From: an uncultured Lachnospiraceae bacterium
GTDB lineage: Bacteria; Bacillota; Clostridia; Lachnospirales; Lachnospiraceae
DNA length: 64,000 bases
Reading direction: 5' to 3'
Assembly (NCBI GenBank): GCA_910585255.1
Contig: CAJUEI010000003.1
Location: 2,782-66,781 of the forward strand
Shown here piece by piece: positions 7,888 through 54,389 of this stretch. The position numbers and the translations under genes are program-made. The notes under the pieces are model-generated. The model was not told the DNA's origin. It made no database searches and saw only the letters and a list, made by a program, of their open reading frames with translations. Every line of letters begins with the position of its first letter. Position 1 is the first letter of the stretch.

Positions 7888-8842
7888 GATAGAACATGCT
7901 GTCGTAACAGGAGCGACCGGAATGATTGGGATAGCACTGACAGACTATCTGCTAAGCCAGGGAGCTTGTGTAACAGCTTTGATAAGAAAAGGCTCAAAGA
8001 GGGCAGGGCGGCTTTCTGATCGGAAGGGATTAAAAAAAATAGAGTTGGATTTAACGGAACTTTCAAAGGAAGAAGTTTTATTGTCAAGCGGGGGAATAGA
8101 GCAGAAGCAGGACGTATTTTTTCATCTGGGGTGGGAGGGGACATTTGGAGATTCCCGAAATGATATGGACTTGCAAAATAACAATATTCGTTATACACTA
8201 GATGCAGTGCGGCTGGCAGCCCGTCTGGGCTGTCAGGTGTTTGTGGGTGCTGGTTCACAGGCGGAGTATGGACGGACGGAACAGAAACTGACGTCTGCTA
8301 CACCGGCATTTCCTGAGAATGGATATGGCATTGCAAAATTGGCAGCGGGGCAGATGAGCCGTATTTTGTGTCAATCTTTGGGGATGCGGCATGAGTGGGT
8401 AAGAATATTAAGTATCTATGGAGCATTTGATCTAGAGCGAACGATGATTATGTCAGCGATCCGCAAGTTTGCAGCAAAAGAGACGGCAGGATTTTCAAAA
8501 GCAGAACAGCTTTGGGACTATCTCTATGTAAAAGATGCGGCACGTGCATTATATTTAATTGCGGAGCGGGGAAGGGACGGAGCAGTTTATCCAATTGGAA
8601 GCGGAACAGCACGACCGCTGAAAGAATATATTTTTACGATTTGGGACAAGATGGATAGGGAAGGAGAGATTGCTCTTGGAGCAGTTCCTTATGCAAAAAA
8701 TCAGGTGATGTATTTGTGTGCCGATATTTCTGAACTGACAGAGGATACGGGGTTTGTGCCAAAGTATACATTTGAAGAGGGAATAGAAGAGACGATACAG
8801 TGGTATGGGAAAGGAACAGGTTTGATTCATGAAAAAGGTTAG
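7877..8842 (+). CDS. NAD(P)-dependent epimerase/dehydratase/reductase (extended SDR)
   Basis: VVTGATGMIGIAL Rossmann motif and YGIAK (YxxxK) catalytic motif. Overlaps the upstream gene by 11 nt. Confidence 0.8.
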   Translation: MASRIEHAVVTGATGMIGIALTDYLLSQGACVTALIRKGSKRAGRLSDRKGLKKIELDLTELSKEEVLLSSGGIEQKQDVFFHLGWEGTFGDSRNDMDLQNNNIRYTLDAVRLAARLGCQVFVGAGSQAEYGRTEQKLTSATPAFPENGYGIAKLAAGQMSRILCQSLGMRHEWVRILSIYGAFDLERTMIMSAIRKFAAKETAGFSKAEQLWDYLYVKDAARALYLIAERGRDGAVYPIGSGTARPLKEYIFTIWDKMDREGEIALGAVPYAKNQVMYLCADISELTEDTGFVPKYTFEEGIEETIQWYGKGTGLIHEKG

Positions 8843-9782
8843 TATTGTGGTTCCTTGTTTTAATGAGGAGGAGAATGTAGTTCCGTTAAGTGAAGCAATT
8901 ATTCGTACATTTCAGGAAGAGCTGCCTGGTTATGACTATGAGATTATTTTTATTGATAATGATTCTCAGGATAAAACACGAGGATTGCTAAAGGAAATGT
9001 GTGCGGGAAATTCGAAAATTAAGGCTATTTTAAATGCTAAAAATTTCGGACAGTTTAATTCTCCTTATTATGGGCTTTTGCAGATTACAGGGGACTGCGG
9101 TATTTTGGTAGCGGCAGATTTTCAGGACCCGATTGAGATGATTCCTAAATTTGTAAAGGAGTGGGAGAAAGGGTATAAGATTGTCTGTGGAATTAAGACC
9201 AGCAGCCGGGAGAGCAAATGGATGTATTTTTTTAGGAGCTGTTATTATAAGATGATTAAGAGGCTTTCTCAGGTGGAGCAGATTGAGCATTTTACGGGGT
9301 TTGGGCTGTATGACAGGAAGTTTATCGAGGTGTTAAAGCAGTTAGATGATCCGACACCTTTTTTGCGGGGGATTGTAGCGGAGCTGGGCTTTCGCAGAAA
9401 GGATTTGGAGTATACACAGCCTAAGAGGAGGGCTGGGAAGACCAGTAATAATTTTTACCGGCTTTATGATGCGGCGATGCTGAGTATTACTTCTTATACG
9501 AAGGTAGGGCTTCGACTGGCAACTTTGGTGGGGTTTTTGTGTGCGGCTTTTAGTATGGCGGTGGCAGCGGTTTATTTGGTGCTGAAGCTGATCTATTGGG
9601 ATCGCTTTATTGCCGGAACGGCACCTATTTTGATTGGGATGTTTTTGCTTGGATCGGTGCAGTTGTTTTTTATTGGGATGCTGGGGGAGTATGTGCTTAC
9701 GATTAATTCTAGGGTGATGAAGAGACCGCTTGTGGTGGAAGAGGAGAGGATTAATTTTGATTTGGAAGAGGATGGGGAATAA
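8829..9782 (+). CDS. GT2 glycosyltransferase, polyprenyl-phosphate sugar synthase type (GtrB/CsbB/DPM1-like) with two C-terminal TM helices
   Basis: VSIVVPCFNEEENV, FIDNDSQDKT and VAADFQDP motifs. The C-terminal hydrophobic segments are LATLVGFLCAAFSMAVAAVYLVL and ILIGMFLLGSVQLFFIGMLG. Confidence 0.8.
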   Translation: MKKVSIVVPCFNEEENVVPLSEAIIRTFQEELPGYDYEIIFIDNDSQDKTRGLLKEMCAGNSKIKAILNAKNFGQFNSPYYGLLQITGDCGILVAADFQDPIEMIPKFVKEWEKGYKIVCGIKTSSRESKWMYFFRSCYYKMIKRLSQVEQIEHFTGFGLYDRKFIEVLKQLDDPTPFLRGIVAELGFRRKDLEYTQPKRRAGKTSNNFYRLYDAAMLSITSYTKVGLRLATLVGFLCAAFSMAVAAVYLVLKLIYWDRFIAGTAPILIGMFLLGSVQLFFIGMLGEYVLTINSRVMKRPLVVEEERINFDLEEDGE

Positions 9783-9822: not shown

Positions 9823-10066
9823 GATAGATGGGGAAGGCATCTTCTCACTGATACTCCGGTCTCCAGAAAGTAAGAAGTTCTAAGACTTCTGCATATTGGT
9901 GCATCCAGCCGGACGGACCGGGGTGCAATTCGCCCGTGCAACGGGCTAAACACACCCCTTTTTCGGGCACAAGTGCCCTCAAATCCTTTGTTTTCTAGCA
10001 GAAGTCAAAAACTTCTAACTTTCTTCCGAAGTCGTATCAGTGGGAAGATGCCTCCCCCATCTATCT
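9823..10066 (+). repeat. Copy A of a ~243-nt hairpin-forming intergenic element (long imperfect inverted arms plus a conserved asymmetric core)
   Basis: The arm at 9823-9892 pairs with 9998-10066. The core contains GGGGTGCAATTCGCCCGTGCAACGGGCTAAACACACCCCTTTTT. Related copies lie at 13752-13996 (inverted) and 24741-24981. Confidence 0.8.
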
Positions 10067-10181: not shown

Positions 10182-11414
10182 GTGAAAAAGAAATTGTGGA
10201 GAGGAAAAGAAGGTTTTCTGATAAAGTTGTTGGGGAATAAGATGCTTCAGGATGGAATTTTGTCGATTGGGGCAAAGTGTATTTTTTTTCTGGTTTTAAA
10301 GGGGTTGATTGAGCCTTGGATGAATCGGACATTAGGAGATGCGGCATTTGGGGATTATGTGGTGTATTATGGGTATATTTGTATTTTTTCTTATAGCTGC
10401 GGAGAGGCATTGAATCATATTCGGGTATTGAATCAGGAGACGGATCGGGAGCGGGCTAGGGACTATCGGCGGATTATAGCGGCGGAGGCTTTGATTAGTG
10501 TTTTGATTTTGTTCTGTTTTGGAATGGCTGTAGAACAGATGGGGGTGAGAGAAAGTGTTTTGTTTGGGATAACCTCTGTGGTGCTGATGGTGCGGCTGTA
10601 TTCGGAGTGTGTATTTCGGATTGAGATTAATTATAAGAAGATTTTGCTTTCTTCTGTACTGATGTCATTTGGATATTTGGCTGGTTATTTGGGGTTTCGG
10701 GCAACAGGGCAGTGGTATGTTATTTTTTTGATTGGAGAGACAGTTGCGGTTATTTATGCTGCTGTATCAGGAAAGTTATTTTGGGTGGATAGAAAAAAGG
10801 GAGTCAGTCAGTATTTTCTGCAGACTACGAAAAATGCAGCGACTCTGACAGGTTCTTATCTGATTAGCTATGCATTGATCTATATGGATCGGTTTTTGGT
10901 GCAGTTTCTTTTGGGGAGTGAGCAGGTGTCTACTTATTATATTGCGACTACTTATGGGAAATGTGTTGCATTAGTGATTCCTCCGATTACGGCGGTGCTG
11001 TTAAGCAATATTTCAAAGGGCACAATTTCGTTGGATAAGAAGATGGTTTATAAGGTGGTAGCGGGTTCTTTGGGGGCAGTTTTGTTGTTCTTTTTGGCGG
11101 GGATTCCTATGTCTAGAATCATGATTGGGATTCTTTATCCGGGGGCTTATAGGAACTGTTTGGCTGTGATGGATATGGGAAATCTGGCACAGATTGTATA
11201 TTATAGTTGTAGTATTGTAAATATGATGGCAATTCGGCTTTGTGATATGAAACTTCAGGTATTTGTGGAAACAGCCTATGCCATCCTTTATATTTTATTT
11301 GCTGTTATTGGTGCTGCGGCTGGCGGCTTGGTCGGGCTTGCAGTTGGAACATTGGGTGCCAATATTCTTCGGTTTATTTTATTAACCGTTCCGGTATATA
11401 GAAAGGTGAGGTAG
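10182..11414 (+). CDS. Polytopic membrane protein, oligosaccharide flippase (Wzx/MOP-like), putative
   Basis: About 12 hydrophobic segments, roughly 400 aa, located in a glycan locus. The start is uncertain (GTG 10182 or ATG 10242). Confidence 0.5.
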   Translation: MKKKLWRGKEGFLIKLLGNKMLQDGILSIGAKCIFFLVLKGLIEPWMNRTLGDAAFGDYVVYYGYICIFSYSCGEALNHIRVLNQETDRERARDYRRIIAAEALISVLILFCFGMAVEQMGVRESVLFGITSVVLMVRLYSECVFRIEINYKKILLSSVLMSFGYLAGYLGFRATGQWYVIFLIGETVAVIYAAVSGKLFWVDRKKGVSQYFLQTTKNAATLTGSYLISYALIYMDRFLVQFLLGSEQVSTYYIATTYGKCVALVIPPITAVLLSNISKGTISLDKKMVYKVVAGSLGAVLLFFLAGIPMSRIMIGILYPGAYRNCLAVMDMGNLAQIVYYSCSIVNMMAIRLCDMKLQVFVETAYAILYILFAVIGAAAGGLVGLAVGTLGANILRFILLTVPVYRKVR

Positions 11415-11415
11415 A

Positions 11416-12636
11416 ATGAAGCGTTCACAGGTATTTACATTGGTATTTTGTATTTCTATGTTTACATTGGGATTGATTACATTGACGTTATTTTTGCAGA
11501 ATCCGCAGGGAAGCCAGAGAAGTCTTCTTTTTCCGGATCAGGATGATTATTTTATGGATTTTTTTAATACTTTAAATTATACGGCAAATCGAAATCCCTA
11601 TCAGGACGGATATGGCGGATTGGTCAACCGGAATTATCTGCCTCTGGCATATTTGATTTTGTATCCATTTTCTAAATTGGGAGATTTTATTCATGAGCTG
11701 CCCAAAGAGATTCGCCCCGAACAGGCGGCAATGATCGGCTGTTTTGTATTTTTGCTGCTTTCTTTTGGGCTGTTTTTTTATTTGATGTATGAGGGAAAAA
11801 GCGGAAGGCGATTAGAAAAACTTTTTACTACTTTGGCATGTGCCTGTTCGGGGCTGATTCTTTATAATATTGACAGAGCCAATACAATCATTTTAGCGGT
11901 TGCTTTTTTATGGCTGTATCTATTGTTTTATCGGGATGAAAATCCAGTTTATCGCCATATTGCTTTAGTAGGGCTGGCGATTTCCGCTGCATTAAAAGTC
12001 TATCCGGCAATCTTTGGCGTGCTGCTTTTATATGAAAAACGTTGGAAAGATACAGCATGGGCAATTTTGTATGGGGTTATTGCGGTATTTCTGCCGTTTT
12101 TATTTTTTGAAGAAGGTTTTGCAGCCGTTCCTCAATTACTCTATAATGTACAATTAAACAGTAAAAAATATTATGGGGGAAGCTTCAGTATTGTAACCAA
12201 TCATATCTTAGATACGACCAATCTATTGTCCATTGGTTTTGGAATAGCAAAAGTACTGATGGTTCTTATTGCGGCAATGGCATGGCTTCAGGAAAAGTTT
12301 TGGAAAAGAATTTTGCTGCTGACCTGTGCACTGCTGCTTTCTCCGACACACAGCGGGTATTACTGCGGACTCTATCTGTTTATTCCGCTGATTTTCTTTT
12401 TAAACGAAGAAGATCACAGCAATTTAGACTGGCTGTATTTAGTTCTATTTATTTTGGCAGTTAGTCCGCTGCAGTTTCGTATCTCATTGCCTGAAACACG
12501 CTTGTTTCGGACACAGTTTGATAATTTTATGCTTCAAAATATGGCAGCAATAGGAATCTATCTAAGTTTAATTATAGAGACACTCTATTCAGCAGTAAAA
12601 CAATGGAATCTAAGAAAAAGACAGGTAGTTACATGA
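11416..12636 (+). CDS. Polytopic membrane protein, candidate polymerase (Wzy-like) or GT-C glycosyltransferase
   Basis: Ten or more TM segments with one larger loop. The ATG follows the preceding stop by 1 nt. No soluble domain is present. Confidence 0.4.
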   Translation: MKRSQVFTLVFCISMFTLGLITLTLFLQNPQGSQRSLLFPDQDDYFMDFFNTLNYTANRNPYQDGYGGLVNRNYLPLAYLILYPFSKLGDFIHELPKEIRPEQAAMIGCFVFLLLSFGLFFYLMYEGKSGRRLEKLFTTLACACSGLILYNIDRANTIILAVAFLWLYLLFYRDENPVYRHIALVGLAISAALKVYPAIFGVLLLYEKRWKDTAWAILYGVIAVFLPFLFFEEGFAAVPQLLYNVQLNSKKYYGGSFSIVTNHILDTTNLLSIGFGIAKVLMVLIAAMAWLQEKFWKRILLLTCALLLSPTHSGYYCGLYLFIPLIFFLNEEDHSNLDWLYLVLFILAVSPLQFRISLPETRLFRTQFDNFMLQNMAAIGIYLSLIIETLYSAVKQWNLRKRQVVT

Positions 12637-13565
12637 AAGAGAAAACGAGTTTAAAGAAAAAAATAGTAAAGATCGGCGGAATTCTGCTTGCAGCAGTAAT
12701 TCTAGGATTTATGGTAAAAGAATTTATACAAAACTGGCAGGATATCCGTCCCTATCTGGAAAATGCAAAACTAGGAATATTAGGAATTGCCATTTTACTC
12801 TATGCGGCTGCTTTTCTAGCAACCGGATATAATTGGGCATATCTGCTTTGGAGAATGGACAGCCGGCTGGAAAAAAGAGAATATCTGCATATTCATATGG
12901 TATCTGCTCTGGCACGCTATATTCCGGGAGGGATTTGGAATATTGTAGGAAAGGCATATATGTGTACAGAAAAAGGAGTAGAAAAATCGGCTACTACAGC
13001 CAGCATGATATTGGAATATGTATTTCAGATTTTATCAAGCGGCTTATTCCTGCTCTTTTTTTTACCAGTATTGATACAAGAATTTTTAACACCAATTTTA
13101 ACAGCAGGATTTATCCTAATTACCATTTTAATTCTTATCTTCCTTCCATGGATAGTCCGAATAGGAATCAAAATACTTGGAAAAGTATTCCGAGAAGATC
13201 TATCTGGGATGCAGATAAAAAATCGCTATGTTTATCAAATCTTAGCCCAATATGTCGGAGTCTGGCTATTTACTGGATTTGGATTAATTGTATTAGTAAG
13301 AGCCTTTGAAAACATTAGCTGGCTGCAGGGACTCTATCTTATGCTGTCCTATCCGATTTCCTGGGTAGCCGGTTTTTTAAGCCCCTCTCCCAATGGAATG
13401 GGAGTCCGGGAGGGAGTCCTTCGCCTGCTGTTAGGAGAACGCTACTCTTATGAACTATTACTATTAATTACATTAACAACCAGAATATGGACAATATTAG
13501 GAGAAGTAGTGGCATTTGCCGGATTTGAAAGTTACTATCATCTTAGAACCAAAAAGAGAAAATAA
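12633..13565 (+). CDS. Flippase-like / lysylphosphatidylglycerol-synthase TM-region family membrane protein
   Basis: The multi-TM protein with RYIPGGIWNIVGK and SPSPNGMGVREG motifs is typical of the UPF0104/LPG_synthase_TM family. I chose the ATG at 12633, which overlaps the upstream stop (ATGA). Confidence 0.6.
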   Translation: MKEKTSLKKKIVKIGGILLAAVILGFMVKEFIQNWQDIRPYLENAKLGILGIAILLYAAAFLATGYNWAYLLWRMDSRLEKREYLHIHMVSALARYIPGGIWNIVGKAYMCTEKGVEKSATTASMILEYVFQILSSGLFLLFFLPVLIQEFLTPILTAGFILITILILIFLPWIVRIGIKILGKVFREDLSGMQIKNRYVYQILAQYVGVWLFTGFGLIVLVRAFENISWLQGLYLMLSYPISWVAGFLSPSPNGMGVREGVLRLLLGERYSYELLLLITLTTRIWTILGEVVAFAGFESYYHLRTKKRK

Positions 13566-13751
13566 AAAAAGGAAATTCAGAATCTACTCCGCCACTTCCT
13601 CATAATCCCATGCTGCTATTGCAGCTTGTCAGATGGGACTTGCACCCTACCTGACACAAGGAAGTCCCTCAACCCACCGCTTTCGCCTTCACGGCTTAGA
13701 AACAGGGGACTTCCTCGATAGGTTAAAAAATGTACATTGCTGAAAAAACAA

Positions 13752-13996
13752 CCGGGTTTTGGAATTGGTCTTTTTCTGCTGTGACTTCGGAAGAAAGTTA
13801 GAAGGTCTTAGGCTTCTGCTCAAAAATCAGGATTTTTTGCCATCATCTGATGGCAAAAAAAGGGGTGTGTTTAGCCTCCTGCAGAGGCGAATTGCACCCC
13901 GTTCCGTCTGGTTGGATGCATGTTCCTGCAGAAGCCTTAGTCCTTCTTACTTTCTGGAGAGCGGAACAGCAGAAAAAGACCAATTCCAAAACCTGG
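13752..13996 (-). repeat. Copy B of the ~243-nt hairpin element, inverted relative to copies A and C
   Basis: The arm at 13752-13819 pairs with 13928-13996. The reverse complement of the core reads GGGGTGCAATTCGCCTCTGCAGGAGGCTAAACACACCCCTTTTTTT. Confidence 0.8.
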
Positions 13997-14144: not shown

Positions 14145-15101
14145 TTGAAGAAAAAAACACTATTTATCACAACCAAAAACTTAGACTACCTACGCAATAC
14201 ACAAGAAATCAATCTATTAAAAAAGCAGAATCAAGAAGTAAAAATAATAGGTTCTCTTTCCAAAAGCTATCCAAAACGGCTTCTTACCGTCTATACCAAA
14301 CTTTTCTTTCAAAACCTAAAAAAATATGATGAAGTTTTTATAGGCTTTGCCCCTCAGCTTATTCTCCCCTTTTGGCAGTGGAAATTTCGTAAAAAATCAG
14401 TTACAATCGATTTTTTTATTTCTATGTATGATACATTTATATTTGATCGAAAAAAATTCAAAAAAAACAGTCTATTTAGTAAATTTTTTCACTATTTAGA
14501 TCAAAAAACCATTTCCCTTGCCGATACTATTATCTGTGATACCAAGGAACATGGAAAATATTTTACAGAAGAATTCAACGCTTCTCCTAAACAACTGCAT
14601 ACTTTATATCTAGAGGCAGATACTACTATATATTATCCAAGAGAGAAGAAAAAAGAAAATGATTTTTTTGAGGTACTTTATTTTGGAAGTATTCTGCCTT
14701 TACAAGGCGTGGATATTGTGTTAAAATCAGCACAGATTTTGCGGAGAAATTCTGCCGTTCATTTTACTTTAATAGGACCAATTGAAAAGAAATATCAAAA
14801 AATAGAGAGTGATACCATTACGTATCTGTCCTGGCTTCCACAAGAGCAGCTTGCCGAAGCGATTGCTCAGGCGGATCTGTGTCTAGCCGGACATTTTAAT
14901 GGAGAGATCCAGAAAGCAAAGCGAACGATTCCAGGAAAGGCTTATATCTATCAGGCAATGAAAAAACCAATGATATTAGGCGACAATCCCGCTAATAGAG
15001 AACTCTATTCAGAGGACATGGAAGGGATTTATTTTGTAGAAATGGGTAATCCGCAGGCACTTGCTGAGAAAATTCTTGAGGTTAAAGGAGAAGACAAATG
15101 A
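14145..15101 (+). CDS. GT-B fold glycosyltransferase (GT4/GT1-like)
   Basis: TTG start. The C-terminal half FGSILPLQGVDIVLKSA...FTLIGP...PGKAYIYQAMKKPMILGD resembles the GT1/GT4 nucleotide-sugar binding domain. Confidence 0.55.
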   Translation: MKKKTLFITTKNLDYLRNTQEINLLKKQNQEVKIIGSLSKSYPKRLLTVYTKLFFQNLKKYDEVFIGFAPQLILPFWQWKFRKKSVTIDFFISMYDTFIFDRKKFKKNSLFSKFFHYLDQKTISLADTIICDTKEHGKYFTEEFNASPKQLHTLYLEADTTIYYPREKKKENDFFEVLYFGSILPLQGVDIVLKSAQILRRNSAVHFTLIGPIEKKYQKIESDTITYLSWLPQEQLAEAIAQADLCLAGHFNGEIQKAKRTIPGKAYIYQAMKKPMILGDNPANRELYSEDMEGIYFVEMGNPQALAEKILEVKGEDK

Positions 15102-18908: not shown

Positions 18909-19048
18909 GCAGACAGCCTAGAGGGAATCTCTGCTGGGGCCGTTTGCACTAAGGCTTCCTCGCAGCGGGCACATAAGATGCTAAAAGACAGCATCTAAGT
19001 GCCGGCGGGAAGCAATACCCCTGCAGAGATTCCCTCTAGGCTGTCTGC
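18909..19048. repeat. ~140-nt long imperfect palindrome (a second type of hairpin element)
   Basis: GCAGACAGCCTAGAGGGAATCTCTGC (from 18909) is the reverse complement of GCAGAGATTCCCTCTAGGCTGTCTGC (ending at 19048). An inner hairpin reads GGCACATAAGATGCT...AGCATCTAAGTGCC. Confidence 0.75.
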
Positions 19049-23581: not shown

Positions 23582-24688
23582 ATGAGTAAGAAAAAGTTGA
23601 CGGGACAGCAGAGGAAGAAGAAACTGGCAAGACGCAGAAGGCGGAAAAAGATTCTGATTGTTGTGGAACTTTTGATTTTGCTGGTGCTGGGGGTGGGGGT
23701 TTATGCTGCTTCTAAGTTTAATCTGTTGGAGGTCAATCCGATTGCTGATTCGGATGTGATGATGAATGAGGAAGTGACAAAGAATAAGGAGTTAAAGGCA
23801 TATACCAATATTGCTTTATTTGGAATTGATTCTAGGGATGAGTCGCTGGGGGACGGGAATCGGAGTGATACGATTATAGTGGCTAGTATTAATAATAAGA
23901 CAAAGGAAATTAAGATGGTTTCTGTCTATCGGGATACGTATCTTCTGATTCCAAAGGAGGATCGTACATATGACAAGGCAAATTTGGGGTATTTTTATGG
24001 GGGACCGGAATTGGCGATTAATGAGTTAAATCGAAACTTGGATTTGGATATTACGGATTATGTGTCGGTGAACTTTTCAGCTTTAATTGATACGATTGAT
24101 GCTTTGGGTGGGATTGATGTAGAGATTACGGAGAAGGAATGTTTTTATATTAATGGATATATGACGGAGACGGCGGAAATTACCGGGAAAGAGAAGGTGG
24201 AGCTTTATGAAAGCGGGCTGGTGCATCTCAATGGGATGCAGGCAACGGCTTTTTGTCGAATTCGATATGTGCCTACTGTGAATGGGACAAATGATGACTA
24301 TGGGAGGACGGAGCGGCAGAGATTGGTGATTAGTAAGATTGCGGAAAAGGCGAAGAAGGCGGATCTGCTTACGTTGAATAAGGTGGTGGATACGGTGCTG
24401 CCTAATATTTCGACCAGTTTGACTGCAGGGGAGATTTTGGGGTTGATTTCTGGGGTTGCAAAGTATGAATTGGTGGATAATGCGGGGTTTCCATTTGAGA
24501 AGGTGGGGACTGGAATGGGGAGCAAGGGGGATTGTGTGGTGCCTGTGGATTTGGAGTATAATGTGGAGGAACTGCATCGATTTTTGTTTGGGGTGGAGGA
24601 TTATGCTGTGTCGGAGACGGTGAAGGAGATTAGTGAACGGATTGTTGAGGTGTCTGGGCTGAGACATAAGGAAGTTGGAGTGGAATAA
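23582..24688 (+). CDS. LytR-CpsA-Psr (LCP) family glycopolymer ligase
   Basis: Basic N-terminus plus a TM helix, then NIALFGIDSRDE...GNRSDTIIVASIN, typical of the LCP domain. Confidence 0.85.
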   Translation: MSKKKLTGQQRKKKLARRRRRKKILIVVELLILLVLGVGVYAASKFNLLEVNPIADSDVMMNEEVTKNKELKAYTNIALFGIDSRDESLGDGNRSDTIIVASINNKTKEIKMVSVYRDTYLLIPKEDRTYDKANLGYFYGGPELAINELNRNLDLDITDYVSVNFSALIDTIDALGGIDVEITEKECFYINGYMTETAEITGKEKVELYESGLVHLNGMQATAFCRIRYVPTVNGTNDDYGRTERQRLVISKIAEKAKKADLLTLNKVVDTVLPNISTSLTAGEILGLISGVAKYELVDNAGFPFEKVGTGMGSKGDCVVPVDLEYNVEELHRFLFGVEDYAVSETVKEISERIVEVSGLRHKEVGVE

Positions 24689-24740
24689 ATGGGGGAGATT
24701 GGGAGATTAGGAGGGAATTGACAGTGGGGGAGGGGACGCT

Positions 24741-24981
24741 AGAGTGGGGAAGTGCTCCCTTCCTGCTGTTCCGCTCTCCGAAAAGTAAGAAAGTCTTATG
24801 CCTCTGAGTCTGGATGCATCCAACCGGACGAACCGGCACGCAATTCGCCTCTGCAGGAGGCTAAACACGTGCCTTTTTTTGTCATCAGGAGATGACAAAA
24901 AATTCTAGGGAGCTGACAGAGGCATAAGACTTTCTTACTTTTCTCCGAAGTTACAGCAGGAAGGGAGCACTTTCCCACTCT
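24741..24981 (+). repeat. Copy C of the ~243-nt hairpin element
   Basis: The arm at 24741-24806 pairs with 24917-24981. The core reads GGCACGCAATTCGCCTCTGCAGGAGGCTAAACACGTGCCTTTTTTT followed by GTCATCAGGAGATGAC. Confidence 0.8.
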
Positions 24982-25155
24982 GGCTGTTTTTTTCTGCTTG
25001 TAGAGTTGTTGTGGGTGTGCCTTTGGATTATTGGATTGTGTTTGATTGGGGATGATAGAGTGTTTGTTGGGGTGCAGCGGTGGTTAGGGAAAATCCTTTG
25101 TTTTTAGGCATGGGGTGTGTCAATAGAATGGATAGAGTAAGTGAGGAAATTTGGA

Positions 25156-27474
25156 ATGAATCCACAGATGATATTAAAACAATACTTTGGTTATGATAAT
25201 TTTCGTGAGGGGCAGCGGGAATTGATTGATTGGATTTTAGAGGGTGGAGATGTACTTGGGATTATGCCTACGGGTGCTGGTAAGTCGATTTGTTATCAGG
25301 TGCCGGCTTTGATGTTTTCGGGGATTACGGTTGTGATTTCACCGCTGATTTCTCTTATGAAGGACCAGGTTTATTCGTTATCACAGGCAGGAATTTCTGC
25401 TGCTTATATTAATAGTTCTTTGAGTGATGCACAGATATATAGAACGTTTAAAAATGCCGGATTGGGAAAGTATAAAATTCTTTATATTGCACCGGAACGG
25501 CTGGATACTTCATTATTTTTGGAGTTTATTGCTTATGCGGATATTTCTTTGGTGGCGGTGGACGAGGCACACTGTGTTTCGCAGTGGGGGCAGGATTTTA
25601 GACCTAGTTATCTGAATATTGCACCGTTTGTAGCACAGCTTCAAAAGCGACCAGTTTTGTGTGCATTTACTGCTACTGCTACCAGTGAGGTAAAAGATGA
25701 TATTTTATGTATTTTAGGATTGAGACAGCCGAAGTTGTTAATTACGGGGTTTGATCGGAAGAATCTGTATTTTGCGGTAAAGCATGTGAAAAAGAAGAAG
25801 CAGGAAATCTTGGGTTATGTGAAGGAACATCGGGATCAGTGTGGGATTATTTATTGTTCTACTAGAAATAATGTAGATGAAGTGTATCAGATGTTATGTG
25901 AGAACGGGATAGATGCAGCCCGGTATCATGCCGGAATGAGTAAGGAAGAGCGGACGAAGAGTCAGGAGGAGTTTATCTATGATGTAGAGACGGTTATGGT
26001 TGCTACAAATGCATTTGGTATGGGGATTGATAAATCAAATGTTCGTTATGTTCTGCATTACAATATGCCGCAGAGTATGGAGAATTATTATCAGGAAGCG
26101 GGAAGGGCAGGGAGAGACGGAGAAAATTCGGAGTGTATTTTGTTTTATGAGCCAAGGGATGTGCATATTAATAAGTTTTTAATTGAGAATAAAGAGTCAA
26201 AAAAGGAACTGACAGAAGAGGAAGAGGCGGCGATTCGGGAACGGGATTATAAGCGGCTTCGGGAGATGACGTTTTATTGTACAACCAAGGAATGTCTTCG
26301 AAATTTTATTTTAAAGTATTTTGGAGAGCGGACTGGGGCAGATTGTAATAACTGCAGTAACTGTCTGACTGATTATGAGAAGACGGATGTAACTGAGTTA
26401 AGCCGGAAGATTTTAAATTGTGTTTATGAATTGAGACAGCGTTTTGGGATTAATATTGTGATAGGAGTGTTAAGAGGGAGCAAGGCGGCTCGGATATTGG
26501 AGAATGGGTTTGATAAGTACCGAACGTATGGAACATTGACAGAGTATGCGGAGAGTTCGCTTCGGCAGATTATTGATGCACTGATTCAGGAGAATATGCT
26601 GATTCAGACAGAGGATCAATATCCGGTGCTGCGGCTGGGGGCGGATTATCTGAAATTAAAGGATGAGGCAAATCGAATTTATATAAGAAGTGAAGTTCGC
26701 CGGGCAAAGGAAGTGGCAAAGCCGGTGGATGGAAAGAAGAGCATTTTAACCAATAAAGGATATGCCTTATTTGAGAAGCTGCGTCTTTTGCGGATGGAGA
26801 TTGCAAAGGAGGAGAATATCCCTCCTTATATTGTATTTTCGGATAAGACGTTAAGTGATATGTGCAGGAAGCTGCCGTTTACGCCGGAAGAGATGCTTTC
26901 AGTAACCGGGGTGGGACAAAATAAGAAGGAAAAGTATGGGCGGCGGTTTTCTGAATTGATTTTGCAGGTGACAGGCGGGGATAGGGAAGGTTATTCCTGG
27001 ACAGAACCGAATTCGTCTGTTGGGCAGAAAGAGGCAGAGATAGTAAAGAAGAAAAAGGAATTAGAGAGGAGGGAATTGGAAAAGAAAAAAGAGTTAGAAA
27101 AAAAGACAGAAAATCATGCAGTAGGAAAGAAGGGAAAGGAAGAGTTTTATTTTACAAGGTGGATGGCGGAGCGGATTAACTGTAGAGGGGATTGTATGCT
27201 GGCTGAATTTGTAAAGAAATTAAATGAACAAATTGATGCAGAGCAGGTAAAAAGACTGACAACTTCTTTTATAGAAAGACGATTAGAAGAGGGAGGGTAT
27301 ATTCACTGTGAACATCATATGCGTTCGGTTGTGATTGTAAAAGAGAAAGGAAAAAGGCAGGGATTTTTTGTTGCACAGCGGATTAGTCAGAATGGAAATA
27401 AGTATGATGTACTGATGTTAAATGAGCAGTCACAGAGGTGGTTATTGGGGAAGGTTGTAGAGAAAAATCTGTAA
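25156..27474 (+). CDS. recQ: ATP-dependent DNA helicase RecQ with an extra C-terminal domain
   Basis: FGYDNFREGQRE, MPTGAGKS, VAVDEAHC (DEAH box), SQWGQDFRP, a zinc-binding C...C..C..C cluster and an HRDC-like segment (YIVFSDKTLSDM). I chose the ATG at 25156. Confidence 0.9.
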   Translation: MNPQMILKQYFGYDNFREGQRELIDWILEGGDVLGIMPTGAGKSICYQVPALMFSGITVVISPLISLMKDQVYSLSQAGISAAYINSSLSDAQIYRTFKNAGLGKYKILYIAPERLDTSLFLEFIAYADISLVAVDEAHCVSQWGQDFRPSYLNIAPFVAQLQKRPVLCAFTATATSEVKDDILCILGLRQPKLLITGFDRKNLYFAVKHVKKKKQEILGYVKEHRDQCGIIYCSTRNNVDEVYQMLCENGIDAARYHAGMSKEERTKSQEEFIYDVETVMVATNAFGMGIDKSNVRYVLHYNMPQSMENYYQEAGRAGRDGENSECILFYEPRDVHINKFLIENKESKKELTEEEEAAIRERDYKRLREMTFYCTTKECLRNFILKYFGERTGADCNNCSNCLTDYEKTDVTELSRKILNCVYELRQRFGINIVIGVLRGSKAARILENGFDKYRTYGTLTEYAESSLRQIIDALIQENMLIQTEDQYPVLRLGADYLKLKDEANRIYIRSEVRRAKEVAKPVDGKKSILTNKGYALFEKLRLLRMEIAKEENIPPYIVFSDKTLSDMCRKLPFTPEEMLSVTGVGQNKKEKYGRRFSELILQVTGGDREGYSWTEPNSSVGQKEAEIVKKKKELERRELEKKKELEKKTENHAVGKKGKEEFYFTRWMAERINCRGDCMLAEFVKKLNEQIDAEQVKRLTTSFIERRLEEGGYIHCEHHMRSVVIVKEKGKRQGFFVAQRISQNGNKYDVLMLNEQSQRWLLGKVVEKNL

Positions 27475-54192: not shown

Positions 54193-54389
54193 AATATTTT
54201 ATGGTTTCGAGAAAAGTGTACTTTTTCCAAAACTTGTACTTGTATAATTTTAATATAAAATTTAAAAAAAATCAAGAGCATCATTAACCTTTTTAGCAAA
54301 AATATTGTTTAAATTTGTGTTTATAAAGAATATAATTTTATATTTTATAGTTTTGGAAAAAGTACACTTTTTACGAAACTATAAAATAT
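54193..54389. promoter_or_regulatory. 41-bp inverted repeat pair (54193-54233 and 54349-54389) bracketing a 115-bp AT-rich segment in the divergent promoter region
   Basis: The arms are reverse complements at 38/41 positions (hand alignment). Each arm contains the palindrome AAAAGT-GT-ACTTTT. Inside the bracketed segment a leftward TTGATT-17-TAAAAT promoter-like match lies at 54274-54246. Confidence 0.8.

What the first reader, a model, noticed from the sequence alone, without database searches (positions are those of the whole stretch)
24741..24981. Compensatory base changes in three nested helices of the hairpin-element core (copy C versus copies A and B)
**Helix P1**
- In copies A and B it reads GGGGTG...CACCCC. 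In copy C it reads GGCACG...CGTGCC.
- All three changed positions are compensated.

**Inner helix P2**
- In copy A it reads GCCCGT-GCA-ACGGGC. In copies B and C it reads GCCTCT-GCA-GGAGGC.
- Two pairs are swapped compensatorily and one becomes a wobble pair.

**Following small hairpin P3**
- It has a different sequence in every copy: GGGCAC/GTGCCC, GCCATCA/TGATGGC and GTCATC/GATGAC.
- It is nevertheless always a hairpin, flanked by T- and A-runs that can also pair.

**Interpretation**
- P1 and P2 followed by T5-T7 look like an intrinsic terminator, and its U-tract can alternatively pair into the extended P3.
- This covariation is what a functional RNA, or a structured single-stranded DNA, would be expected to show.
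Basis: seen in the sequence. Interest (0 to 1): 0.7.

Follow-up and report, generated by a model that had tools for sequence, protein, structure and literature searches.

The report
Dispersed 250-base hairpin repeat family
The compensatory base changes are real, but they belong to a previously uncatalogued family of about 250-base palindromic repeats scattered between genes in a narrow group of gut Lachnospiraceae, whose pairing pattern fits a folded DNA element with a built-in terminator-like core better than a classical functional RNA.

Summary
Copy C (24738-24984) and its two relatives in the window (A 9824-10064 +, B 13752-13996 -) carry exactly the P1, P2 and P3 variants described.

With about 46 distinct copies collected from related metagenome contigs, base pairing is kept far beyond the shuffle and slide controls:
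- Whole hairpin: 97% of cells paired, against 83% when shuffled. 45 of 78 pairs change on both sides.
- P1, P2 and P3: 99% or more paired.

- **Dispersed repeat:** the element is not a single-copy RNA gene. It lies between unrelated genes, in both orientations, and close neighbours always form convergent pairs. It is absent from the syntenic cluster of a sister species.
- **Pairing pattern:** pairing is almost purely Watson-Crick. G.U (18) is no commoner than A.C (34), in both genomic orientations. This argues against ordinary one-strand RNA selection and for a hairpin needed in DNA.
- **Terminator:** the P1-P2 plus T5-8 module remains a plausible forward-strand terminator.
- **Arm-to-arm conversion:** recent alleles give no support (0 of 21 stem changes are two-sided).
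- **Core inversion:** the one apparent case is probably an assembly artefact.

My best reading is a new REP/BIME/MITE-like palindromic repeat family. Its mobilising enzyme is unknown.

The parts
24738..24984 (+). Copy C, whole hairpin element. It is type I, with a long outer stem, and lies between the LytR-CpsA-Psr gene (23582-24688) and recQ (25156-27474).
   Evidence: Inverted repeat I8. Fold energy is -159.8 kcal/mol with z -15. nhmmer match at 24739-24983.
24798..24926 (+). Copy C, conserved branched core: inner stem end, P0, P1-P2, T-run, P3 and P4.
   Evidence: Covariance-model match of 138.3 bits, E 5e-32.
24835..24873 (+). Copy C, P1-P2 hairpin:
- P1: GGCACG (24835-24840) with CGTGCC (24868-24873).
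- Invariant internal loop: CAATTC (24841-24846) and TAAACA (24862-24867).
- P2: GCCTCT (24847-24852) with GGAGGC (24856-24861).
- Apical loop: GCA.
   Evidence: Sequence. Fold energy -19.5 kcal/mol. Pair counts.
24874..24880 (+). Copy C, T7 run directly after P1. It is a candidate terminator U-tract.
   Evidence: Sequence. A T-run of 5-8 is present in all copies.
24881..24902 (+). Copy C, P3 hairpin GTCATC-AGGA-GATGAC followed by A6.
   Evidence: Sequence. All six P3 pairs covary across copies.
9824..10064 (+). Copy A, whole hairpin element, between a GT2 glycosyltransferase gene (8829-9782) and a flippase-like gene (10182-11414). Core helices:
- P1: 9920-9925 with 9953-9958.
- P2: 9932-9937 with 9941-9946.
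- T5: 9959-9963.
- P3: 9965-9978.
   Evidence: nhmmer. Covariance-model core at 9883-10008, 129 bits. Sequence.
13752..13996 (-). Copy B, whole hairpin element in the opposite orientation, between an LPG_synthase_TM gene (12603-13565) and a GT1 gene (14145-15101).
   Evidence: Inverted repeat I6, 97% complementary. nhmmer. Covariance-model core at 13809-13937, 139 bits.

Best explanation
The three copies belong to a lineage-restricted family of dispersed, intergenic, palindromic DNA repeats of about 250 bp. They are the same general kind as REP/BIME/REPIN elements and hairpin-forming MITEs.

**Anatomy (shown)**
- A 60-75 bp stem. It has conserved termini (GACGCYRGAG ... CTCYRGCTGT), a fast-evolving middle segment and a conserved inner segment.
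- The stem carries a roughly 110-nt branched core: P0, P1-P2, a T-run, P3 and P4.
- The unpaired bases of the core are invariant (CAATTC/TAAACA, ACCGGACGGACCGG), while the helices vary.

**Mechanism (inferred)**
- The element has to fold as a hairpin in single-stranded or extruded DNA, so strict Watson-Crick complementarity is kept.
- The invariant loops, presented on variable helices, act as the recognition module for a trans-acting protein. This is most plausibly an enzyme that mobilises or maintains the repeats and acts on single-stranded DNA.
- New mutations hit one arm at a time. They are then lost or compensated.
- When RNA polymerase reads a copy in its forward orientation, the P1-P2 hairpin plus U5-8 probably terminates transcription, followed by the whole hairpin with its T-rich tail in type I copies. 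A convergent pair would therefore block transcription from both sides.
For: **Dispersed multi-copy family**
- There are 3 copies in the window and none expected by chance.
- 41 spurious 'protein' clusters were called across the core, in Lachnospiraceae metagenome-assembled genomes.
- About 46 distinct cores occur in 25 loci, up to 4 per 20 kb.
- The neighbouring genes are unrelated (MatE/PTS, MutS/AlaS, RecJ, FTHFS and others).

**Narrow range**
- Only 26 representatives exist among 1.84 billion protein clusters.
- There are 2 exact-pattern hits in the metagenome contigs and none in viral contigs, plasmids or phages.
- There is no copy in 22 kb of the syntenic cluster of a species whose RecQ is 82% identical.

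**REP/BIME-like organisation**
- All 9 pairs of copies lying within about 1.3 kb of each other are convergent.
- In the six pairs of short-form copies, one member is type I and the other type II.
- Tandem arrays that vary in copy number lie between the members of a pair.
- The literature reports the same habits for REPs and REPINs: compensatory changes in the hairpin, inverted dimers that are mostly heterodimers, and clusters (PMC3116915; PMC3733652).
- Two other hairpin repeat families sit in the same genomes.

**DNA-type pairing**
- Cell counts are 1481 Watson-Crick, 34 A.C, 18 G.U and 14 other.
- The result is the same whether the element's forward strand is the G-rich or the C-rich genomic strand.
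- Many pair changes are transversion flips such as A-U to U-A or G-C to C-G.

**Dispensable at a given site**
- In some strains copy A has lost P2 and carries a mutated P0.

**Terminator module**

**No known RNA family**
- Rfam gives no match at gathering threshold.
Against: - No transposase or other dedicated enzyme was found next to any copy.
- No target-site duplication or empty site was defined. Intergenic DNA of the sister species is too diverged to align.
- No presence/absence polymorphism was seen within the species. A, B and C are present in every contig that reaches them.
- Two stem positions carry a fixed forward-strand G.U or U.G: alignment A4 columns 60-240, and the closing pair of P2.
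- The T-run is conserved even where it cannot pair. That is an RNA or transcription-level feature.
- The excess of A.C over G.U (34 against 18), the two A.C intermediates in P1 and a fixed C.A in the long-form P3 could instead mean that the reverse strand is the folding RNA.
- Forward-oriented copies do not sit preferentially after gene 3' ends (7 of 11 type I copies, by inspection).
Confidence: 0.5

Rival explanations
1. The element is a cis-acting RNA element selected at the transcript level. It would be an orientation-dependent intrinsic terminator or insulator (P1-P2 plus a U-tract, backed by the whole hairpin plus a U-rich tail), or a 3'-end stabiliser of the upstream mRNA. The long stem would then be kept because it has to form in RNA.
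For: - P1-P2 folds stably (-19.5 to -21.6 kcal/mol).
- It is followed by T5-8 in every copy, including the alleles without an A-run partner.
- Type I copies end in a T-rich tail.
- C sits at the end of the polysaccharide cluster, before recQ.
- Two positions carry a fixed G.U on the forward strand.
- REP/BIME elements are reported to attenuate transcription (abstracts listed).
Against: - An efficient P1-P2 terminator would stop RNA polymerase before the 3' arm is made. The 60-75 bp stem would then never form in RNA.
- There is no G.U tolerance in the stems (18 G.U against 34 A.C).
- B and half of all copies lie antisense to the flanking genes. All six type II members of the short-form pairs face away from the adjacent gene.
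- A lies in the middle of what looks like one operon.
- The simple terminator scan does not call it, because of the internal loop.
Confidence: 0.25
2. The arms stay complementary by a purely DNA-level, function-free process: arm-to-arm gene conversion, or template switching that corrects quasi-palindromes. On this view the covariation says nothing about function.
For: - Pairing is almost exclusively Watson-Crick and strand-symmetric.
- Many double changes are transversion flips, which cannot pass through a wobble intermediate.
- P1 and P2 differ by blocks of adjacent changes.
- Mosaic alleles show that recombination between copies occurs. In L034 the 3' arm alone differs at many positions.
Against: - Among within-species alleles, 21 stem changes are one-sided and none is two-sided.
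- The unpaired core bases are invariant across very diverged copies. This needs purifying selection, not conversion.
- The 6-bp helices P1 to P3 stay paired across at least four, two and six or more alleles respectively.
Confidence: 0.1
3. Each copy is a gene for a trans-acting small or large structured RNA. The variable stem segment would serve as a specificity or guide region.
For: - The architecture resembles a structured RNA: conserved loops on covarying helices and a four-way core.
- A terminator-like 3' end lies inside the element.
- A promoter-like TTGACA-16-TAGAGT overlaps the 5' end of copy C.
Against: - No conserved promoter lies inside or in front of the element. The copy C site is not shared by A or B.
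- There are many copies per genome, in both orientations.
- There is no G.U signature.
- The variable segment is simply diverged homologous sequence, not a replaced cassette.
- One ortholog has decayed.
Confidence: 0.07
4. The element is an invertible switch. The core, with its one-way terminator, would flip between the inverted-repeat arms to turn downstream genes on or off. A known parallel is the Clostridioides difficile cwpV switch, which I cite from my own knowledge.
For: - One contig of the same species (L016) has the core of copy C in reverse orientation behind an unchanged 5' arm. The covariance model confirms this with a match on the minus strand.
- The window copies lie in a surface-polysaccharide and flagellar region.
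Against: - The other end of the same contig shows the same kind of flip at an unrelated hairpin, I7. This is what a de Bruijn assembler produces when it runs into inverted repeats at small k.
- All other copies, about 45 of them, have one fixed core orientation relative to the asymmetric arms.
- No flips are seen at A or B in ten other contigs.
- No recombinase gene is adjacent.
- There are too many copies for a dedicated switch.
Confidence: 0.04

Closest known systems
REP / BIME / REPIN elements (repetitive extragenic palindromes, mobilised by RAYT Y1 transposases)
   Same: - High-copy intergenic palindromes, restricted to a lineage.
- The hairpin is kept by compensatory changes (PMC3116915).
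- They occur as inverted dimers, mostly heterodimers of two subtypes, and head-to-tail dimers are rare (PMC3733652).
- They form clusters and tandem arrangements.
- Roles proposed for them include transcription termination and mRNA stability.
   Different: - This element is about 250 bp, against 20-40 bp for a REP and about 100 bp for a REPIN.
- It has a conserved branched core with invariant internal loops.
- It has no unpaired GTAG or CGTC tag.
- No RAYT gene was found in the loci examined.
- The host phylum (Firmicutes, Lachnospiraceae) is not among those listed in PMC3733652.
Hairpin-forming bacterial MITEs (for example Correia, ERIC, RUP and bcr1; named from my own knowledge)
   Same: - They are 100-400 bp non-coding repeats that fold into long hairpins.
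- They are intergenic and can carry terminators or promoters.
- They break short-read assemblies.
   Different: - No target-site duplication, no related autonomous insertion sequence and no insertion polymorphism were demonstrated here.
- Within each copy the arms are far more alike than copies are to each other. That is not expected for passively decaying terminal inverted repeats.
Rho-independent (intrinsic) terminators
   Same: The P1-P2 module is a G+C-rich hairpin directly followed by T5-8.
   Different: - The hairpin carries an invariant 6 x 6 internal loop.
- It is embedded in the middle of a much larger palindrome.
- Half of the copies are antisense to local transcription.
Integron attC sites and other folded single-stranded-DNA recombination sites
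   Same: Structure is conserved while stem sequence is free, and a few unpaired bases act as the identity determinants.
   Different: - attC sites form same-orientation arrays, with one site per cassette, next to an intI gene. Here close copies are convergent and no integrase is adjacent.
- The size also differs (57-141 nt for attC).

Membership tests
Any Rfam RNA family | A match to a curated covariance model at its gathering score | tested here: not met
   There are no matches in the 64-kb window at gathering threshold. In the permissive scan of copy C the best hit is a plant miRNA precursor model at 54.6 bits, against a gathering score of 245. This reflects a generic long hairpin.
REP / REPIN / BIME | High-copy intergenic palindromic repeats within a lineage | tested here: met
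   There are 3 copies in the window and up to 4 per 20 kb in related contigs. All are intergenic.
REP / REPIN / BIME | Inverted dimers are predominant and head-to-tail dimers rare | tested here: met
   All 9 pairs of copies within about 1.3 kb are convergent. All 6 short-form pairs combine one type I and one type II copy.
REP / REPIN / BIME | A short (20-40 bp) palindrome with an unpaired GTAG or CGTC tag at one end | tested here: not met
   The unit is about 250 bp with a branched core. Its terminal GACG (the reverse complement of CGTC) is paired inside the stem, not an unpaired tag (definition from PMC3733652).
REP / REPIN / BIME | An associated RAYT (Y1 HUH) transposase gene in the genome | not testable with these tools
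   Only stretches of 20 kb or less around the copies were available, and none of them carries PF01797. The only Y1_Tnp gene seen is in the sister species that lacks the element.
MITE | Terminal inverted repeats | tested here: met
   The termini GACGCYRGAG ... CTCYRGCTGT are conserved and complementary.
MITE | A target-site duplication and an empty site in a relative | tested here: inconclusive
   The flanks share a conserved composition but no direct repeat. The sister species lacks the element, but its intergenic DNA does not align, so no clean empty site can be defined.
MITE | A parent autonomous insertion sequence with the same ends | tested here: not met
   Nothing in the fetched loci, including the IS200/IS605 copy in L055, matches the element by nhmmer or by the covariance model. 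Whole genomes were not searched.
Intrinsic terminator | A stable G+C-rich hairpin immediately followed by a U-tract | tested here: met
   P1-P2 folds at -19.5 to -21.6 kcal/mol and is followed by T5-8 in all copies.
Intrinsic terminator | Position at the 3' end of a transcription unit, in the sense orientation | tested here: inconclusive
   7 of 11 type I copies follow a gene in sense. B and all six type II members of the short-form pairs do not.
Intrinsic terminator | Transcripts end at the U-tract | not testable with these tools
   No transcript data are available.
Invertible DNA switch (inverton) | Both orientations of the segment between the inverted repeats are present in natural populations | tested here: inconclusive
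   One contig (L016) has a flipped core. Its other end shows the same flip at an unrelated hairpin, which points to an assembly artefact. No flips are seen elsewhere.
Integron attC | Same-orientation arrays, one site per cassette, next to an intI gene | tested here: not met
   Neighbouring copies are convergent and the spacing ranges from 0.1 to 10 kb. No integron integrase lies in the window region examined.

The most novel reading that the evidence does not exclude
The element could be the substrate of an undescribed system. It has an invariant asymmetric internal loop (CAATTC/TAAACA) and an invariant ACCGGACGGACCGG segment, presented on freely covarying helices at the tip of a 60-75 bp stem. 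These would be the recognition module either for a new enzyme that acts on single-stranded DNA (a transposition or recombination system not related to RAYT/IS200), or for a protein partner of a new large structured non-coding RNA class in gut Lachnospiraceae. The obligate convergent type I/type II pair would be the functional unit.
Probability: 0.15. Interest if true: 0.75.

Novelty: new variant of a known kind. Interest (0 to 1): 0.42.

Why it matters
If this reading is right, a clade of gut Lachnospiraceae carries at least three families of hairpin repeats.
- The largest is a 250-bp element with unusually clean covariation and a conserved branched core.
- REP-like repeats have mostly been described in Proteobacteria and a few other phyla, and their mobilising enzymes are known only for the GTAG type.
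- A large structured family in Firmicutes would widen that picture. It also offers a well-defined substrate for finding its partner protein.

There are two practical consequences.
- These elements break short-read assemblies and create spurious gene calls. 41 'protein' clusters in public databases are translations of the core.
- They may insulate transcription inside surface-polysaccharide and flagellar loci.

The case also gives a worked example of a general caution: strong covariation alone does not prove a functional RNA.

Tried and rejected
1. **Genome-collection scan.** I scanned with GCAATTCGCC-N9-GGCTAAAC.
2. **Viral contigs, plasmids and phages.** No matches.
3. **Rfam.** Nothing real.
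4. **Invertible-switch idea.** It arose from the flipped core in L016. I set it aside when the other end of the same contig showed the same flip at the unrelated hairpin I7. No flips were found at A or B in ten further contigs.
5. **Outermost G-rich/T-rich flank helix of type I copies.** I tested it as evidence for forward-strand RNA pairing with G.U pairs. A copy's own flanks pair no better than flanks from different copies (-8.4 against -8.2 kcal/mol), so the effect is compositional.
6. **Empty-site search in a sister species.** The element is absent there, but the intergenic DNA is too diverged and rearranged (MCP gene plus IS200/IS605) to define the insertion boundaries.
7. **Link to the IS200/IS605 copy at the syntenic site.** No sequence similarity to the element.
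8. **Internal sigma-70-type promoter.** None is conserved. The one hit at the 5' end of copy C is not shared by A or B.
9. **Coding potential.** Rejected. The open frames across the core have unrelated, non-conserved ends, and the T-run length and indels are not in multiples of three.
10. **A-B pair as a cassette carrying the three genes between them.** Not supported. Both copies are type I-like, and the compositional anomaly extends past B.

Full report
**What is at the coordinates**

The span 24741-24981 lies inside a long hairpin whose outer arms are 24738-24769 and 24953-24984 (32 nt, 94% complementary). As RNA, the plus strand folds at -159.8 kcal/mol (z = -15) and the minus strand at -151.2 kcal/mol (z = -18).

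The window holds two relatives: copy A at 9824-10064 (+) and copy B at 13752-13996 (-). Core motifs occur exactly three times in the window, against zero expected. All three copies lie between plus-strand genes of a cell-surface polysaccharide cluster: glycosyltransferases, a flippase-like protein and LytR-CpsA-Psr. Copy C sits just before recQ and a flagellar block.

The one qualification is that the T-run/A-run extension of P3 is weak in copy A.

**Getting more copies**

A stricter pattern found two real copies in the metagenome contigs (L008 and L009) and none in viral contigs.

The productive route was indirect. The core is open in one reverse reading frame, so I searched its translation against the protein collection. 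This returned 41 clusters of spurious 'proteins' called across the element. The only named sources are Lachnospiraceae metagenome-assembled genomes.

Fetching the contigs behind ten of them gave about 25 further distinct full copies in unrelated intergenic contexts. A long-form subfamily (L027, L039) has about 70 extra nucleotides in place of the P2 tip. A covariance model of the core then found 52 matches, 46 of them distinct, in 426 kb of these loci.

**Is the covariation more than chance or phylogeny?**

- *Whole hairpin, 21 distinct full copies:* RNAalifold predicts 78 pairs, and 45 of them change on both sides. 97.0% of cells pair, against 83.1 +/- 0.5% in shuffles and 41-50% when partners are slid. 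The covariation score is 0.389 against 0.133, and 0 of 500 shuffles reach it.
- *Core, 46 distinct copies:* P1 is 99.2% paired, P2 99.6% and P3 99.6%. Pairs covarying: 3 of 6 in P1, 2 of 6 in P2 and 6 of 6 in P3.
- *P1 alleles:* four Watson-Crick alleles plus two single-mismatch intermediates.
- *Protein-level check:* the two arms of P1 and of P2 are never found in a mismatched combination. 'GV' always goes with 'HP', 'GT' with 'RA', and the P2 peptide is either 'ARCTG' or 'ASCRG'.

P1 and P2 alone represent only a handful of block events. The strength of the case comes from P3 and the long stem.

**Anatomy**

- The termini are conserved (GACGCYRGAG ... CTCYRGCTGT).
- Next comes a segment of about 20 bp that has diverged heavily between copies yet stays paired.
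- Then follow a conserved asymmetric internal loop and a conserved inner stem.
- The core contains P0 (weak), P1-P2, a T-run, P3 and P4 (weak).
- The unpaired core bases are invariant (CAATTC/TAAACA and ACCGGACGGACCGG), while the helices vary.

Two subtypes exist. Type I has the longer outer stem, a G-rich 5' flank and a 3' tail CTGTCTTTTCCTGCCGTAAG.... Type II has a shorter stem and a 3' tail GGCTGTATTGTTCCACAATTTACG.

**Genomic behaviour**

- Copies occur in both orientations.
- Every pair of copies within about 1.3 kb is convergent (9 of 9). All six short-form pairs combine one type I with one type II copy.
- The space between the members of a pair often holds tandem arrays of 51-94-nt units. 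These include duplicated element tails, and their number differs between strains.
- Many contigs end inside the element.
- The family is rare in public data: 26 representatives among 1.84 billion clusters, and nothing in plasmids or phages.
- A sister species (RecQ 82% identical) has the same cluster, LytR and recQ, but no copy in 22 kb. Between LytR and recQ it carries a chemoreceptor gene and an IS200/IS605 element instead.
- In some strains copy A has a 9-nt deletion that removes P2, together with eight clustered G-to-A and C-to-T changes in P0. An individual copy can therefore decay.

This is the behaviour of a dispersed repeat, not of a conserved single-copy regulator or RNA gene.

**RNA or DNA?**

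Outside two fixed positions, the 1547 stem cells comprise 1481 Watson-Crick, 34 A.C, 18 G.U and 14 other pairs. The result is the same whether the element's forward strand is the G-rich or the C-rich genomic strand.

Structured RNAs normally tolerate G.U and reject A.C. Here both are at the level expected of fresh mutations, and A.C is the commoner. Many double changes are transversion flips, which cannot pass through a wobble intermediate. This points to a need for strict complementarity, as in a DNA hairpin or cruciform, or in an element that must fold on both strands.

Three items point the other way:
- Two forward-strand G.U pairs are fixed.
- T5-8 follows P1 in all copies, even where no A-run can pair with it.
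- P1-P2 is stable.

A forward-strand terminator therefore remains plausible. However, an efficient one would stop RNA polymerase before the 3' arm is transcribed, so it cannot explain the long stem.

Among alleles of the same copy in different strains there are 33 changes at unpaired positions, 21 one-sided stem changes and no two-sided change. New mutations therefore arise on one arm at a time, and pairing is restored, or the mutants are lost, over longer times. Conversion is not excluded, but it is not what the recent data show. It also cannot explain the invariant loops.

**Inversion**

One contig (L016) has the core of copy C reversed behind an unchanged 5' arm. That suggested an invertible terminator. 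However, the other end of the same contig shows the same flip at the unrelated hairpin I7. No other copy or contig shows a flip. I treat it as an assembler artefact until reads are examined.

**Comparison with known systems**

The closest kinds are REP/BIME/REPIN elements and hairpin MITEs. REPIN hairpins show common compensatory changes (PMC3116915). REPs occur mostly as inverted heterodimers, with head-to-tail dimers rare (PMC3733652).

The element fails the defining REP features: it is not 20-40 bp, has no unpaired GTAG or CGTC tag, and no RAYT was seen. It also lacks a demonstrated target-site duplication or parent insertion sequence. I therefore file it as a new variant of this kind, not as a member of an existing family. 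It matches no Rfam family.

**Verdict**

The nucleic acid is structured and constrained, and the terminator module is plausible. It is, however, a repeat family whose pairing looks DNA-like, not a demonstrated functional RNA.
- Confidence in the dispersed palindromic repeat reading is about 0.5.
- Interest is moderate.

Noticed in passing
window 18909-19048: A second, unrelated long hairpin lies between the 939-aa gene and the next glycosyltransferase gene. Its arms are 31 nt and 97% complementary, with a 78-nt core. An 88% identical copy lies in another genome (L042 8969-9122), so it is a second hairpin repeat family.
   Followed up: partly
window 13655-13720 (next to copy B): A hairpin repeat of about 70 nt, GGAAGTCCC...GGGGACTTCC, lies here. 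Related copies (80-90% identical) occur many times in the fetched loci, for example 5 in L043 and 3 each in L024 and L041. Some lie between or beside copies of the large element. It is a third, more abundant repeat family and has no Rfam match.
   Followed up: partly
L046 and L050, about 11080-11110 (orthologs of copy A, window 9906-9946): In some strains copy A carries eight clustered transitions in 12 nt (GCCGGACGGACC becomes ATCAAATAAATC; all are G-to-A or C-to-T). It also has a 9-nt deletion that removes P2. This could be hypermutation or a patch copied from a diverged copy.
   Followed up: no
L020 9560-9830; L031 9575-9850; L043 9600-9930; L024-L026 downstream of copy b: Tandem arrays of 51-94-nt units lie between or beside paired elements. 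They often begin with a duplicated element tail, and the number of units differs between strains.
   Followed up: partly
L016 1-122 and 5805-5916: Both ends of this MEGAHIT contig run into a hairpin element (I7 and copy C), and in both the core is in reverse orientation. This is probably an assembler artefact at inverted repeats. It is a caution for any inversion call made from contigs.
   Followed up: yes
L055 5867-9851 (syntenic to window 24689-25155): In the sister species the LytR-recQ interval holds a chemoreceptor gene and an IS200/IS605 element (a Y1_Tnp fragment plus TnpB) in place of copy C.
   Followed up: partly
window 1-64000: GC skew is very strong on the plus strand (0.25-0.44). 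It dips to about 0.07 at 12-16 kb and to about 0 at 50-54 kb. G+C content drops from 0.40-0.46 to 0.26-0.33 at about 28 kb, which suggests a compositionally foreign flagellar or glycosylation region.
   Followed up: no
window 24718-24745: A promoter-like site, TTGACA-16 nt-TAGAGT, has its second hexamer formed by the 5' terminus of copy C. Copies A and B do not share it.
   Followed up: partly
window 54194-54252 / 54331-54389: Another inverted repeat (59-nt arms, 81% complementary, 78 nt apart) lies in the AT-rich part of the window.
   Followed up: no
L027 / L028 position 9390: Two strains share 99.8% identical sequence from 50 nt upstream of an element pair onwards. To the left of that point their genes are completely different (an acetyltransferase region in one, a restriction-modification region in the other). 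The element pair therefore sits at a synteny breakpoint.
   Followed up: partly
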